Positions 1,830 through 5,977 of a stretch of 5,977 bases of DNA are shown piece by piece. Position 1 is the first letter of the stretch; every line of letters starts with the position of its first letter. This DNA is from a virus (Duplodnaviria > Heunggongvirae > Uroviricota > Caudoviricetes): positions 1 through 5,977 of the IMG/VR virus record IMGVR_UViG_3300029253_000091; one strand, given 5' to 3'. The notes below the pieces were generated by a model. It did no database searches. It had not been told where the DNA came from and was given only the letters and a program-made list of their open reading frames with translations. The position numbers were made by a program, and so were the translations under genes.

Positions 1830-2874
1830 ATTTCAACGCCCGACGCTGGCAGAAAATATCAGTATGCTCCGTAACGATTTATTCGCCAGGCTGGACGTCA
1901 GCGACACGCTCCGGCGCATGGATGAAGACGTGCGGGCAAAGGTGTATGCGGCGGCGCTGCATACGGTTTACGGTTACATCGATTATCTGGCAATGAACAT
2001 GCTGCCTGACCTGTGCGATGAGTCCTGGCTGGCGCGACATGCTGCGATGAAACGGTGTCCGCGCAAGGGGGCCACGTCTGCCAGCGGGTATATGCGCTGG
2101 GAAGGTGTCAGCGATGGCCTGAAGGTGACCGCCGGGAGTGTTATTCAGCGCGATGACCTGGTTCAGTACACGACAACTGACGATGCAACCAGCTCCGGTG
2201 GTGTCCTGCGCGTGCCGATCGCCTGCTCAAGTGCAGGTGCGGTCGGTAACGCTGACGACGGTACGGCATTAATCCTGGTCACGCCGGTGAATGGTCTGCC
2301 GTCTTCCGGTGTGGCTGACACCATTACAGGCGGATTTGATACTGAAGAGCTGGAAACGTGGCGCGCCCGCGTCATTGAGCGGTATTACTGGACGCCGCAG
2401 GGCGGGGCTGACGGGGACTATGTCGTTTGGGCTAAAGAAGTGCCCGGCATTACCCGCGCATGGACATACCGTCACTGGATGGGAACGGGAACTGTCGGTG
2501 TGATGATTGCCAGCAGTGACCTGATTAATCCCATTCCGGAAGAATCAACGGAAACGGCAGCAAGACAACATATCGGGCCACTGGCCCCGGTGGCAGGCTC
2601 TGATTTGTATGTATTCAGGCCGGTGGCACATACGGTGGATTTTCATATCCGCGTGACGCCGGACACACCAGAAATACGGGCTGCCATTACCGCGGAGTTG
2701 CGTTCGTTCCTGCTGCGTGATGGTTATCCGCAGGGAGAACTGAAGGTATCGCGTATCAGTGAGGCGATTTCCGGTGCGAACGGGGAATACAGCCATCAGT
2801 TGCTTGCACCGGTGGACAATATCTCCATTGCGAAAAACGAACTGGCGGTACTGGGGACGATTTCATGGACGTGA
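1816..2874 (+). CDS. Baseplate J-like protein (Mu gp47 / P2 gpJ / T4 gp6 family)
   Basis: 352-aa ORF overlapping the upstream gene by 14 nt. GGAG at 1801-1804. Length and position are typical of the Baseplate_J family. Confidence 0.8.
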
Positions 2875-3449
2875 CAAACGATGATTACATCCGCCTGTTA
2901 TCGGCACTGTTGCCGCCCGGTCCGGCGTGGTCAGCCAGCGATCCGGCGATTGCCGGTGCGGCACCGTCATTAACCCGTGTTCATCAGCGTGCGGATGCCC
3001 TGATGCGGGAGCTGGATCCGCGCACCACCACTGAACTGATAAACCGCTGGGAGCGTCTGTGCGGTCTGCCGGATGAATGTATTCCCGCAGGGACACAGAC
3101 CCTTCGTCAGCGTCAGCAACGGCTGGATGCGAAGGTTAACCTGGCGGGCAGCATCAACGAGAATTTTTATCTTGCACAGCTTGCTGCCCTGGGCAGACCA
3201 GATGCCAACATCACGCGATACGACAAAAGCACGTTCACCTGCTCATCGGTCTGTACTGACGCGGTGAATGCGCCGGAATGGCGGTATTACTGGCAGGTCA
3301 ACATGCCAGCCGCCACAAACACCACCTGGATGACATGTGGCGATCCCTGTGATTCCGCGCTGCGTATCTGGGGCGACACCGTTGTCGAATGTGTGCTTAA
3401 CAAACTCTGCCCGTCGCATACCTACGTAATTTTTAAATATCCGGAGTAA
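2865..3449 (+). CDS. Tail/baseplate protein (Mu gp48 / P2 gpI-like, YmfQ/DUF2313-type)
   Basis: 194-aa ORF overlapping the upstream stop by 10 nt. Immediately precedes the tail fibre gene, as gpI-like genes do in Mu and P2 modules. Confidence 0.7.
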
Positions 3450-3452
3450 TCC

Positions 3453-4274
3453 ATGCATCGTATAGACACGAAAACCGCGCAGAAGGATAAGTTCGGCGCG
3501 GGTAAGAACGGTTTTACCCGTGGTAACCCCCAGACCGGCACACCTGCCACCGATCTGGATGATGACTACTTTGACATGTTGCAGGAGGAACTTTGCAGTG
3601 TTGTGGAGGCATCCGGTGCCAGCCTAGAGAAGGGGCGGCATGACCAGCTGCTTACAGCGCTTCGTGCGCTGCTGTTAAGCCGCAAGAATCCGTTTGGCGA
3701 TATCAAATCGGATGGCACGGTGAAAACGGCTCTCGAAAACCTTGGTTTGGGAGAAGGTGCTCCAGCTATTGGCGTTCCGTTCTTCTGGCCGTCCGCCGCA
3801 ATGCCAAATACTGTAATCGACAGTTGGTCCAGTATGGTGTTTTTGAAGTTCAACGGCGCGAAATTCTCTGCCACTGATTACCCTGTGCTGGCGAAAGTGT
3901 TTCCGGCGCTAGCATTACCTGACGCACGGGGTGATTTCATTCGTATCTGGGATGATGGGCGCGGGATTGATGTCGGACGTACCCTACTTTCAGGGCAATC
4001 ACACACAATTATGGATCATGCACACAATATGGAATTGTGGACGGGGGACGGGCTTGCCGCAGGAAGTGCACGGGAAGGAGTAAACCCAGGAATACTGGCT
4101 ACATACGGTGACGGGGGAATAGTTAAAACGGACGAACCCGGTCTTAAGGTGCCATCCTCACTACGAGCTCTTAGCTCTCGTAGTGTTAAACGTTATGGTG
4201 AAATTAGTGAAAATGTAGGTACAGAAACTCGTCCTCGTAACATCGCTTTTAATTATATTGTGAGGGCCGCATGA
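3453..4274 (+). CDS. Tail fibre protein S: constant N-terminus (Sc, codons 1-97) fused to variable C-terminus (Sv) in the present orientation
   Basis: 273-aa ORF. GGAG at 3443-3446 with 6-nt spacer to ATG 3453. N-terminus [21 protein letters not shown]... and C-terminal motif ...[16 protein letters not shown] are typical of phage tail fibres. The left crossover site lies at codons 93-101. Confidence 0.85.
3730..3755. other. Left gix/hix-like crossover site (inversion site inside S)
   Basis: CTCTCGAAAACC-TT-GGTTTGGGAGAA: two 12-bp half-sites with 9/12 dyad symmetry around a central TT. It resembles hix (TTATCAAAAACCTTGGTTTTCAAGAA) and gix as I recall them. Confidence 0.7.
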
Positions 4275-4876
4275 TGAATAAAGCTGTATTAAATAGCGAA
4301 CTCATTGCCATAAAAGCGGGAGATATTACCGTTTATAATTATGATGGTGAAACGCGGGAATATATTTCTACATCAACTGAATATCTTGCGGTTGGCGTCG
4401 GTATACCGGCATGTTCTTGTTTAGATGCACCAGTTACACATAAAGCTGGTTATGCAATCTGCCGTTCTGCAGATTTTAACTCATGGAAATATGTGCCAGA
4501 CCATCGCGGTGAAATCATCTATAGCACCGAAACAGGAGAATCGAAAGAAATCACAGCTCCGGGTGATTACCCTGAAAATACAACCACTATCGCCCCGTTA
4601 ACGCCATATGATAAATGGGATGGTGAGAAATGGGTGACGGATACTGAGGCACAGCATAGTGCCGCAGTAGACGCGGCAGAAGCACAGCGCCAGTCACTGA
4701 TTGATACTGCAATGGCCTCCATCAGTCTGATTCAGCTGAAATTGCAGGCCGGACGTAAACTAACGCAGGCAGAAACAACCCGCCTTAACGCTGTGCTGGA
4801 TTACATTGACGCGGTGACGGCAACAGATACCAGCACCGTGCCGGATGTCATCTGGCCTGAACTGCCGGAGGCGTAG
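4271..4876 (+). CDS. Tail fibre assembly protein U (Tfa family)
   Basis: 201-aa ORF. ATG overlaps the S stop (ATGA). GAGGG at 4262-4266. C-terminal segment ...[30 protein letters not shown] resembles the conserved Tfa C-terminal domain. Confidence 0.8.
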
Positions 4877-5288
4877 GCCATTCAATATCTGGCGCACCGG
4901 AAGTATCGACCAGCTCCAGTGCGTCCAGATAATCCAGCCACAAATTATATTGCGCCAGTTCCTCACCTTTCAGACGACCAATAGCCGCTTTACCAGGCCA
5001 TTGTTTACTGTTCATATAATCGTTGGCCTGATTAATCAGTTGCTGCTTTTCCAGTTCGGCTGCAGCAATCTGTTCCTCATGTGTTGGTGGTGGAATTTCA
5101 GACCATGCAGGAAAACCATTTTCTCCAGCGATACGGATTTTTCCTTTCGGCGGTAATCCGGAAAACTCAATATACACTTGCTCATCAACTTCAACAGCAT
5201 CATCTGGCCATGAGTCAGCTTGAGTGTAATCCTCTTTCATCTCCAGCGGATAGAAAGAGTTTGTAGTCGCGGAATATATGTAATTCAT
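4848..5288 (-). CDS. Alternative tail fibre assembly protein U' (Tfa family), inside the invertible segment
   Basis: 146-aa ORF on the - strand. GGAGTG ribosome-binding site just upstream of its ATG. C-terminus ...[25 protein letters not shown] parallels the C-terminus of U. Its 3' end overlaps the 3' end of U. Confidence 0.8.
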   Translation of the reverse strand: MNYIYSATTNSFYPLEMKEDYTQADSWPDDAVEVDEQVYIEFSGLPPKGKIRIAGENGFPAWSEIPPPTHEEQIAAAELEKQQLINQANDYMNSKQWPGKAAIGRLKGEELAQYNLWLDYLDALELVDTSGAPDIEWPTPPAVQAR

Positions 5289-5309
5289 TTTTCACTCCAT
5301 ATAGCTAAA

Positions 5310-5663
5310 TTAACAGCCTAACGCTAAAAATGAAGCGCCGAGGCCAGGAGTACTGGCTCTGGATATAAATTTAACCGGGTCGGGACTAAAACCTGCACAG
5401 GCAATATAACCAACAGCCCCGCTATCTGGTGTGTAGTCTTGTGAGACCAAAACACGCAGACATCTGTTTGGAAATGCAATCGGGAAATGGGTTACTACAT
5501 CCTGTGCAATGCCTGGTGCGCCGATTGAGCCCCACTGAAGAATAAAACCTGATGGTAATTTTTGATATCCAGTACCTGAAACAGAAAGCGTGAAGCTACC
5601 CATATCAGGTATCTGATTCGCCCCTGTCCCTACATTCCTTTTAGCCGCTTCTCCCAAACCAAC
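5310..5663 (-). CDS. S'v: alternative tail fibre C-terminal cassette, with no start or promoter of its own in this orientation
   Basis: Open frame on the - strand from the right crossover site to TAA (5310-5312). It is in the same codon phase as Sc at the crossover. Followed 21 nt downstream by U' with its own ribosome-binding site. The listed Met at 5700-5702 lies beyond the crossover site and is probably not used. Confidence 0.7.
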
Positions 5664-5674
5664 GTTTAAGAAAA
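5649..5674. other. Right gix/hix-like crossover site (inverted copy, inside S'v, 55 bp upstream of the invertase start)
   Basis: TTCTCCCAAACC-AA-CGTTTAAGAAAA. Its reverse complement shares a 15-bp perfect match (TTGGTTTGGGAGAAG) with the left site, including the central dinucleotide, with weaker similarity on either side. Confidence 0.7.
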
Positions 5675-5729
5675 TGCAGAGGTAACAGCTAACTGGCATC
5701 ATCTCCGGTTTTTATTCAGGGGGATGATC

Positions 5730-5977
5730 ATGCTTATTGGCTATGTACGCGTGTCAACAAATGACCAGAACACCGATTTGCAACGTAATGCACTGAACTG
5801 CGCGGGATGTGAGCAGATTTTTGAGGACAAAATCAGTGGCACTAAGTCCGACAGACCGGGGCTGAAAAAACTACTCAGGACACTATCGGCAGGAGACACG
5901 CTGGTTGTCTGGAAGCTGGACAGGTTGGGGCGCAGTATGCGGCATCTTGTTACGCTGATAGAAGAGTTGCGCCAGCG
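5730..5977 (+). CDS. Gin/Pin/Hin/Cin-family serine DNA invertase, N-terminal 82 residues; gene continues beyond the window
   Basis: N-terminus MLIGYVRVSTNDQNTDLQRNAL... matches what I recall of Gin and Pin, including the catalytic serine in YVRVSTNDQ, followed by ...DTLVVWKLDRLGRS. AGGGGGA ribosome-binding site at 5718-5724, 5 nt before the ATG. Sits immediately outside the right crossover site. Confidence 0.9.
   Translation, partial: MLIGYVRVSTNDQNTDLQRNALNCAGCEQIFEDKISGTKSDRPGLKKLLRTLSAGDTLVVWKLDRLGRSMRHLVTLIEELRQ
5811..5875. promoter_or_regulatory. Candidate Fis-dependent recombinational enhancer inside the 5' end of the invertase gene
   Basis: Two A/T-tract-centred segments, GAGCAGATTTTTGAGGAC (centre ~5819) and GGCTGAAAAAACTAC (centre ~5867), lie about 48 bp apart and 80-140 bp into the gene. 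This matches the enhancer position and Fis-site spacing known for Hin and Gin. Fis sites are degenerate, so this is tentative. Confidence 0.3.

What the first reader, a model, noticed from the sequence alone, without database searches (positions are those of the whole stretch)
5310..5674. Crossover falls in the same codon phase on both arms, predicting an in-frame Sc-S'v fusion of about 213 aa
On the + strand the central TT (3742-3743) is positions 2-3 of codon Leu97 (cTT) of S. On the - strand the corresponding TT (complement of 5662-5661) is positions 2-3 of codon gTT in S'v. Exchange at the core therefore joins Sc codons 1-97 to 116 S'v codons, giving ...[26 protein letters not shown]...ALGC. 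Both arms encode (N)-L/V-G-L-G-E across the site. S'v has a different C-terminus from Sv (...GASFLALGC versus ...[11 protein letters not shown]), so the two fibres should have different receptor specificity.
Basis: seen in the sequence. Interest (0 to 1): 0.6.

Follow-up and report, generated by a model that had tools for sequence, protein, structure and literature searches.

The report
Invertible phage tail-fibre switch (e14 type)
This is the well-known Pin/Gin-type invertible DNA segment of an E. coli prophage, which flips to join one fixed tail-fibre N-terminus in frame to either of two different receptor-binding tips; the predicted 213-residue fusion is real and already present in public genomes, so the finding is correct but ordinary.

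Summary
The core TT (3742-3743) and its partner AA (5661-5662) occupy codon positions 2-3 on both arms. Inverting 3744-5660 in silico gives an uninterrupted 213-aa ORF, made of 97 Sc codons plus 116 S'v codons. That exact protein, 100% identical, is already on record on 94 contigs. E. coli genomes exist that are precise inversion isomers of this locus, with the swap confined to the 14 bp TT+GGTTTGGGAGAA. S'v is a genuine fibre tip: Pfam Gp53-like_C at 1.6e-14, and a model that matches R-pyocin and AP22 gp53 fibre tips. Sv is a different tip, like that of T4 gp37.

The locus is the e14-type P segment: StfP/StfE fibres, TfaP/TfaE chaperones and a PinE invertase. Its inversion and ORF fusion are published and were demonstrated experimentally in K-12 with the same repeat, TTGGTTTGGGAGAAGG. 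Phage Mu has the same codon phase and the same N-L-G-L motif at gix.

Novelty: already known. The one point of current interest is that the "silent" 130-aa ORF here is built like StfE2, recently claimed to block phage adsorption.

The parts
3453..3743 (+). Sc: the constant N-terminal part of the tail fibre gene (codons 1-97), outside the invertible segment. It is 99% identical to residues 1-103 of E. coli K-12 e14 StfP.
   Evidence: Weak sequence match to the N-terminal region of phage Mu fibre S (5yvq/8ju3). In about 55 of 150 representative proteins, homology to this part ends at residues 99-112.
3730..3755 (+). Left crossover site (pixL-like), 26 bp: CTCTCGAAAACC TT GGTTTGGGAGAA, with core TT at 3742-3743.
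   Evidence: Identical in all 14 related E. coli loci examined and in K-12 e14.
3744..4274 (+). Sv: the variable C-terminal cassette now fused to Sc, giving the 273-aa fibre. The tip is like that of T4 gp37 / collar type and ends in [11 protein letters not shown]. It is of the K-12 stfE type.
   Evidence: 43% identity to stfE; Collar, 18.1 bits, below the cut-off; 2xgf, T4 gp37 tip, E 7.6e-6.
4271..4876 (+). U: tail fibre assembly chaperone paired with Sv (TfaE-like, 92.5% identity to K-12 TfaE).
   Evidence: Caudo_TAP, 3.9e-32.
4848..5288 (-). U': tail fibre assembly chaperone paired with S'v (TfaP-like). It converges on U and overlaps it by 29 nt.
   Evidence: Caudo_TAP, 8.4e-38.
5310..5660 (-). 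S'v: the alternative variable cassette (116 codons plus stop), now uncoupled from Sc. It carries a Gp53-like C-terminal receptor-binding domain.
   Evidence: (PF21882, 1.6e-14).
5649..5674 (+). Right crossover site (pixR-like), 26 bp: TTCTCCCAAACC AA CGTTTAAGAAAA, with core AA at 5661-5662. Read on the minus strand this is TT, so the two sites are in inverted orientation with identical cores.
5663..5702 (-). Thirteen codons plus one base outside the segment ([13 protein letters not shown], then the G of the Val codon). They extend the uncoupled cassette to a 130-aa ORF starting at ATG 5702. This matches the short stfE N-terminus that K-12 contributes to 'StfE2'.
   Evidence: (annotated on 40 contigs). 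GGAG directly abuts the ATG, which is a poor spacing (read from the sequence).
5730..5977 (+). 5' part of the serine DNA invertase gene (pinE-like), cut off by the contig end after 82 codons.
   Evidence: Resolvase N-terminal domain, 4.6e-29; Mu Gin structures 4m6f/3uj3, E 2e-41; 77 of 82 residues identical to K-12 PinE.

Best explanation
The window carries the tail-fibre end of an E. coli-type prophage with a Mu-like baseplate module (gp44-gp48/YmfQ), followed by an e14-type invertible P segment.

The proposed mechanism is as follows. A Pin/Gin-family serine invertase is encoded immediately to the right. It pairs the two 26-bp sites at 3730-3755 and 5649-5674, cuts both with a 2-nt stagger at the central TT/AA, rotates the half-sites by 180 degrees and religates. 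This inverts 3744-5660. The core lies at codon positions 2-3 on both arms, and the 12 bp inside each core are identical. Either orientation therefore leaves an intact reading frame, ...E-N-L-G-L-G-E..., running from the fixed promoter-proximal Sc (97 codons) into one of two cassettes.

- In the orientation seen here, the product is a 273-aa fibre with a gp37/collar-like tip, followed by its chaperone U.
- In the other orientation, the product is a 213-aa fibre with a gp53/R-pyocin-like tip, followed by its chaperone U'.

A lysogen population would thus release particles with two alternative receptor-binding tips.

Shown here: the anatomy, the frame, the domain identities, the existence of the exact fusion protein, and precise inversion isomers in other genomes. 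Taken from the literature on K-12 e14: that PinE (and PinQ/PinR) actually invert a segment flanked by this same repeat. Inferred: the cleavage chemistry at the core (known for Gin/Hin), activity of this particular invertase copy, expression from an upstream late promoter, and different receptor specificity.
For: Frame and product.

Only two sites, none expected by chance.

Invertase. The fragment is close to Mu Gin (E 2e-41) and 77/82 identical to K-12 PinE.

Cassettes and chaperones.

Same gene order as K-12 e14 (ymfQ-stfP-tfaP-tfaE-stfE-pinE), with Sc 99% identical to StfP 1-103. K-12 is in the opposite state, with Sc fused to its gp53-like cassette as the 209-aa StfP.

The exact 213-aa fusion is on 94 contigs. 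All ten places examined have the mirror gene order Sc-S'v, U', then U and the other cassette on the minus strand, then the invertase.

Collinearity breaks exactly at the repeat. The window's flank aligns up to 3756, and the inverted blocks start at 3737 and end at 5667.

L001 and L008 differ by a clean swap of the inner sequences, while the outer half-sites stay in place. This confines the exchange to TT+GGTTTGGGAGAA.

Both junction states are common in complete E. coli genomes. 382 genomes have the Sc-S'v junction and 144 have the S'v-pin junction, at 80% or more query coverage.

Literature: inversion of the e14 P segment at 5'-TTGGTTTGGGAGAAGG-3' generates chimeric stfP/stfE genes and was measured by qPCR and sequencing (PMC12529663). 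Both e14 orientations coexist in K-12 cultures and the ORFs fuse (PMC4272514).

Phage Mu gix has the same phase (core at codon positions 2-3 on both arms) and the same motif, Q-N-L-G-L-Q-E.
Against: The invertase gene is cut off after 82 codons by the contig end, so it cannot be shown to be intact here.

No convincing recombinational enhancer (pair of Fis sites) could be picked out in the 248 nt of pin available.

No promoter was identified for the fibre operon; the consensus scan found nothing informative.

The window is a single assembled orientation, so inversion in the source population itself is not shown.

Receptor specificities are unknown.
Confidence: 0.93

Rival explanations
1. Host-defence reading, which complements rather than excludes the fibre switch. 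In the orientation seen here, the uncoupled gp53-like cassette is not silent. It is translated from the ATG at 5702 as a 130-aa protein that blocks adsorption of other phages, as claimed for K-12 StfE2. On this reading the switch also toggles a host defence phenotype.
For: The ORF is intact and extends 13 codons beyond the site. It has the same architecture as K-12 StfE2: a short hydrophobic N-terminus M(M)P-x-x-C-Y-x-x-I-F-x-N-V-G-L-G-E followed by a gp53-like domain, at 30% identity overall. Kirigo et al. 2025 report that StfE2 reduces T2 adsorption and that the inverted K-12 state is T2-resistant (PMC12529663). The identical 130-aa ORF is annotated on 40 contigs.
Against: The evidence that StfE2 itself is responsible in K-12 rests on plasmid overexpression and docking. 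The GGAG directly abuts the ATG here, which is a poor spacing, and no promoter was detected. The tip is only about 30% identical to the K-12 one, so any target would differ. Related loci with a different, Hin-like invertase flank have no start codon outside the site, so the extension is not a general feature. A fibre tip would normally need Sc to join a baseplate, and there is no recognised export signal.
Confidence: 0.15
2. Frozen relic. The segment no longer inverts in this genome, for example because the invertase is inactive or lost. On this reading S'v/U' is a decaying remnant, and the in-frame relation merely persists from an active ancestor.
For: The invertase is only partly visible (82 codons). 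The contig shows one orientation. K-12 e14 itself is a defective prophage in which stfE is annotated as a pseudogene.
Against: Both sites have intact inner half-sites and cores identical to those of loci found in both orientations. S'v and U' are full-length ORFs whose domain matches pass the Pfam thresholds. The visible invertase fragment has no lesion and retains the conserved N-terminal YVRVSTNDQ active-site motif. The baseplate module upstream is complete, unlike in K-12 e14. Other Pin invertases in the same cell can act in trans (PMC12529663).
Confidence: 0.07
3. Chance coincidence. The repeat and the shared codon phase are fortuitous, and the minus-strand ORF is not a gene.
For: None beyond the one-in-three prior for a frame match.
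Against: Zero matches expected in shuffles against two observed. The domain hit is significant. The exact fusion protein and the mirror isomers exist in other genomes. Mu has the same phase and motif.
Confidence: 0.01

Closest known systems
Invertible P segment of the E. coli K-12 e14 element (stfP/ycfK, tfaP, tfaE, stfE, pinE)
   Same: Same gene order after ymfQ. Sc is 99% identical to StfP residues 1-103. The left site is identical, and the right site differs from K-12's by one base within the 26 bp. The inner repeat TTGGTTTGGGAGAAGG is the same. The invertase fragment is 77/82 identical to PinE. U is 92.5% identical to TfaE. One collar-type and one gp53-type cassette are present. Inversion and ORF fusion are published (PMC12529663, PMC4272514; the latter cites Plasterk & van de Putte 1985 and Mehta et al. 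2004, which I could not open).
   Different: The segment is 1917 bp here against 1797 bp in K-12. The orientation is opposite to the K-12 reference. The gp53-like cassette is only about 30% identical to K-12's, and the collar cassette 43%. The upstream baseplate module (gp44-gp48) is complete here, whereas in K-12 e14 it is truncated (jayE pseudogene).
G segment of phage Mu (S/U, S'/U', Gin) and C segment of P1 (Cin)
   Same: Same logic: a constant Sc outside, two opposed cassettes each followed by a chaperone, and the invertase gene to the right. The crossover core lies at codon positions 2-3 on both arms, and the same N-L-G-L peptide runs across the site. The invertase fragment matches Gin at E 2e-41. 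The baseplate genes belong to the Mu gp44-gp48 families.
   Different: In Mu the core is TC/GA at codon 170 of a 504-aa fibre and the segment is about 3 kb. Here the core is TT/AA at codon 97 of very short fibres (273 and 213 aa). The cassette folds also differ. P1 was not examined here.
R-type pyocin and phage AP22 gp53 tail-fibre tips (Pfam Gp53-like_C)
   Same: The C-terminal ~85 residues of S'v match the family. The model superposes on 6cl6, 6ct8, 4mtm and 6cxb with probability 1.0.
   Different: Sequence identity is 26-29%. Those fibres are not known to me to sit on invertible segments (from memory, not tested).

Membership tests
Gin/Cin/Pin/Hin-type invertible segment (serine-invertase DNA inversion switch) | A small serine recombinase of the invertase subfamily is encoded next to the segment. 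| tested here: met
   Resolvase N-terminal domain at 4.6e-29. Matches Mu Gin at E 2e-41 over all 82 residues. 77/82 identical to K-12 PinE. Only the first 82 codons lie in the window.
Gin/Cin/Pin/Hin-type invertible segment (serine-invertase DNA inversion switch) | Two 26-bp sites in inverted orientation, each made of two imperfect 12-bp half-sites around a 2-bp core. The two cores are identical and non-palindromic. | tested here: met
   Sites at 3730-3755 and 5649-5674. The half-sites are CTCTCGAAAACC, TTCTCCCAAACC (twice) and TTTTCTTAAACG. The core is TT on both when each is read in its own orientation. The layout resembles Mu gix, TTATCCAAAACC TC GGTTTACAGGAA.
Gin/Cin/Pin/Hin-type invertible segment (serine-invertase DNA inversion switch) | A recombinational enhancer with two Fis sites about 48 bp apart, usually in the 5' part of the invertase gene. 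| tested here: inconclusive
   A loose scan for G-N13-C sites found only weak candidates, for example 5860 and 5907, which are 47 bp apart. The motif is too degenerate to decide.
Gin/Cin/Pin/Hin-type invertible segment (serine-invertase DNA inversion switch) | The segment is actually found in both orientations. | tested here: met
   Shown between genomes, not within the source sample. L001 versus L008/L009 are clean isomers. 382 and 144 complete E. coli genomes carry the two junction states. In-culture inversion of the K-12 homologue is published.
Mu-type alternative tail-fibre cassette system (Sc + Sv/U or S'v/U') | A constant 5' gene part outside the segment reads in frame into either cassette. 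| tested here: met
   (273-aa and 213-aa ORFs). (both proteins are on record).
Mu-type alternative tail-fibre cassette system (Sc + Sv/U or S'v/U') | Each cassette is followed by its own tail-fibre assembly chaperone. | tested here: met
   U and U' both match Caudo_TAP, at 3.9e-32 and 8.4e-38.
Mu-type alternative tail-fibre cassette system (Sc + Sv/U or S'v/U') | The two orientations give different host range or adsorption. | not testable with these tools
   Only inferred, from the unrelated tip families.
Pfam PF21882 Gp53-like_C (fibre tip) | Score above the curated gathering threshold over the full model. | tested here: met
   54.7 bits against a cut-off of 24.9, covering model positions 1-84 of 84.
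Pfam PF07484 Collar (phage tail collar domain), for Sv | Score above the curated gathering threshold. | tested here: not met
   18.1 bits against a cut-off of 24. Kinship with the T4 gp37 tip rests instead on the 2xgf match at E 7.6e-6, which includes the shared C-terminal NIAFNYIVR. Homologous silent cassettes in related loci do carry a Collar hit on record.

The most novel reading that the evidence does not exclude
In the orientation captured here the gp53-like cassette is not silent. It is expressed from the ATG at 5702 as a 130-aa StfE2-like protein that occupies a surface receptor and protects the lysogen from other phages. Because its tip is only about 30% identical to the K-12 protein, its specificity would differ. 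The switch would then alternate between a virion host-range function and a host-protective function.
Probability: 0.12. Interest if true: 0.4.

Novelty: already known. Interest (0 to 1): 0.1.

Why it matters
It matters little as a discovery. The in-frame crossover is the textbook design of Gin/Cin/Pin tail-fibre switches. This particular fusion protein is already in public databases, and inversion of the K-12 homologue has been measured.

It is useful in practice in three ways:
- Annotation pipelines call the uncoupled cassette a separate gene, or even an "integrase" pseudogene. Recognising the switch corrects that.
- The locus is a clean example of cassette modularity at the N-L-G-L-x-E joint.
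- The 130-aa ORF is a natural variant with which to test the recent StfE2 receptor-blocking claim.

Tried and rejected
- Fis/enhancer scan of the pin 5' end: only weak, non-specific candidates, so no claim is made.
- Sigma-70 promoter and terminator scan of 3300-5977: fewer promoter-like hits than in shuffles and none near the sites. One weak terminator-like hairpin at 5691-5710 was not pursued.
- Search for extra crossover sites that would indicate a multi-segment shufflon of the Min/p15B type: only two sites, so this is a simple two-state switch.
- Attempts to open Mehta et al. 2004, Plasterk & van de Putte 1985 and what I believed to be a review of serine invertases: none is held. These sources are therefore cited only second-hand or from memory.
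- The phage collection held no record covering 80% or more of the switch region. The informative relatives were in E. coli chromosomes.
- The idea that the window is K-12 e14 itself: rejected. The cassettes differ, the baseplate module is complete, and the exact S protein occurs only on this 5977-nt JGI contig.

Full report
**What is in the window**

The ORF list and the Pfam scan show a contiguous phage tail module on the + strand:
- a gp44/P-like baseplate hub (2-856, partial);
- gp45 (856-1404);
- gp46 (1401-1829);
- baseplate J/gp47 (1816-2874);
- Mu gp48/YmfQ (2865-3449);
- a 273-aa fibre gene (3453-4274);
- a Caudo_TAP chaperone (4271-4876).

On the minus strand there follow a second Caudo_TAP chaperone (5288-4848) and a 130-aa ORF (5702-5310) with a Gp53-like_C domain. 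Back on the + strand is the first 82 codons of a serine recombinase (5730 to the contig end). The exact 273-aa protein is on record only on one 5977-nt JGI/GEM contig, so the window is a whole metagenomic contig.

**Checking the observation**

The left site reads CTCTCGAAAACC TT GGTTTGGGAGAA (3730-3755). The right site reads TTCTCCCAAACC AA CGTTTAAGAAAA (5649-5674). They form the longest inverted repeat in 3400-5977 (25 nt, 88% complementary). The 19-mer occurs nowhere else in the window with up to 3 mismatches, against 0 expected in shuffles.

TT 3742-3743 is positions 2-3 of codon 97 (CTT) of the fibre gene. The partner TT on the minus strand (5662-5661) is positions 2-3 of codon 14 (GTT) of the 130-aa ORF. 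Inverting 3744-5660 in silico yields a 213-aa ORF with no stop.

**Is the predicted product real?**

The 213-aa sequence is in the protein collection residue for residue (P0001), on 94 contigs from E. coli and other Enterobacteriaceae. In all ten places examined the gene order is the mirror image of the window: YmfQ, the 213-aa fibre, the 146-aa chaperone, then on the minus strand the other chaperone and the other cassette, then the invertase.

BLAST of the window and of its in-silico isomer against these loci shows that collinearity breaks exactly at the repeat. Flank alignments end at 3756, and the inverted blocks run from 3737 and to 5667.

Two genomes form a clean isomer pair with the window's own cassettes at about 97% identity. 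CP080080.1 (L001) has the window's orientation, and OY754452.1 (L008) has the flipped one. In these two the outer half-sites (…gaaaacc and …cataaacg) stay in place while the sequences beyond GGTTTGGGAGAA swap. This confines the exchange to the 14 bp TT+GGTTTGGGAGAA.

Across complete E. coli genomes, 382 carry a contiguous Sc-S'v junction and 144 carry an S'v-pin junction, at 80% or more query coverage. These are rough counts, because they depend on how well the flanks are conserved.

**Are the cassettes fibre tips?**

S'v matches Pfam Gp53-like_C at 1.6e-14 (54.7 bits, cut-off 24.9). It also matches solved fibre tips by sequence: a short tail fibre called gp92, AP22 gp53, and R1/R2 pyocin fibres.

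A model built on 57 representative sequences has mean pLDDT 77.9, rising to 85-94 in most of the C-terminal beta domain. It matches 6cl6, 6ct8, 4mtm, 6cxb and 6cl5 with Foldseek probability 1.0.

Sv matches the T4 gp37 receptor-binding tip (2xgf, E 7.6e-6), including the shared C-terminal NIAFNYIVR. Its Collar hit falls below Pfam's threshold. The two tips are thus unrelated in family. This supports the idea that they bind different receptors but does not prove it.

**What it is**

The locus is the e14-type P segment. K-12 MG1655 has the order ymfQ-stfP(ycfK)-tfaP-tfaE-stfE-pinE.
- Sc is 99% identical to StfP residues 1-103.
- U is 92.5% identical to TfaE.
- The invertase fragment is 77/82 identical to PinE.
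- The K-12 sites carry the same TT core and the same inner repeat.

K-12 is in the opposite state. There Sc is joined to its gp53-like cassette, giving the 209-aa StfP, and the collar-type stfE is uncoupled. This is independent proof that an Sc-gp53-like fusion of about 210 aa is a normal product of this design.

Published work describes the inversion, the repeat 5'-TTGGTTTGGGAGAAGG-3', the resulting chimeric genes and qPCR measurements of inversion by PinE and PinQ (PMC12529663). It also describes the coexistence of both orientations in K-12 cultures, with fusion of the ORFs (PMC4272514).

Phage Mu shows the same rule. The gix core lies at codon positions 2-3 on both arms, and the peptide across it is Q-N-L-G-L-Q-E. 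The codon-phase match is therefore the family's conserved design, not a peculiarity of this window.

**Modularity**

In a search of 1.84 billion representative proteins, homology anchored at the N-terminus ends at residues 99-112 in about 55 of the best 150 hits, just past the joint. The S'v cassette also occurs at 90-94% identity on longer N-termini, in proteins of 251, 289 and 339 aa. This fits cassette exchange at the conserved joint.

**Mechanism, and what remains inferred**

From established knowledge of Gin/Hin (my own knowledge, not tested here), the invertase cleaves both sites with a 2-nt stagger at the core, rotates and religates. Identical asymmetric cores in inverted orientation make inversion the productive outcome.

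Not shown here:
- that this invertase copy is intact, since it is cut off at 82 codons;
- an enhancer, since the scan was inconclusive;
- the promoter;
- inversion within the source population;
- the receptors.

**A point worth noting**

The uncoupled cassette extends 13 codons beyond the site to an ATG at 5702, giving the 130-aa ORF. This is the architectural counterpart of K-12 StfE2 (30% identity), which a 2025 paper reports to block T2 adsorption. The window is in the state that would encode such a protein.

Whether it is made here is unknown. The GGAG abuts the ATG, no promoter was seen, and loci with a different invertase flank lack the outside start codon. I give this reading a low probability.

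**Verdict**

The observation and its interpretation are correct. The feature is an already known kind and essentially an already known instance. Interest is low.

Noticed in passing
window 5310-5702 (-): The 'silent' cassette forms a 130-aa ORF with 13 codons ([13 protein letters not shown]) outside the invertible segment. It has the same architecture as K-12 'StfE2', recently reported to block phage T2 adsorption. Relative to the K-12 reference, the window is in the 'inverted' state.
   Followed up: partly
L015 (phage Mu NC_000929) 1462-1489 and 4520-4547: The Mu gix cores also lie at codon positions 2-3 on both arms and encode Q-N-L-G-L-Q-E. The phase and the N-L-G-L motif are therefore shared between Mu and this e14-type locus, although the joint is at codon 170 in Mu and codon 97 here.
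   Followed up: yes
window 4268-4594: The N-terminal part of chaperone U is not matched by megablast in the otherwise 97%-identical isomer loci L001/L008, whereas its C-terminal part is. The chaperone's N-domain looks mosaic and exchanged independently of the cassettes.
   Followed up: no
window 4795-4812 / 4921-4938 and 4848-4876: U and U' converge and overlap by 29 nt. An 18-nt inverted repeat (83% complementary) comes from their shared C-terminal motif LDY(I/L)DA. It could serve as a secondary substrate for homologous exchange inside the segment.
   Followed up: no
L003 5665-6125 and L004 5669-6130 (CP027447.1, AP027886.1): RefSeq annotates the uncoupled collar-type cassette next to pinE as an 'integrase' pseudogene. 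This appears to be a mis-annotation of the silent fibre cassette.
   Followed up: no
window 5691-5710 (+): A weak terminator-like hairpin followed by a T-run lies between the right site and the invertase start codon. It overlaps the start of the 130-aa minus-strand ORF.
   Followed up: no
L005, L012, L014 (about 6150-6850): Some loci carrying the identical 213-aa fibre have a different right flank (…tttgaaagg TT GGTTTGGGAGAA) and a 187-aa invertase, followed by DinI, an integrase and dus. The same cassette system is thus paired with at least two invertase/flank types.
   Followed up: no
P0169, P0170, P0173: The S'v cassette occurs at 90-94% identity on fibres with much longer N-terminal parts (339, 251 and 289 aa). 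The homology starts at query residues 86-90, just before the joint.
   Followed up: partly
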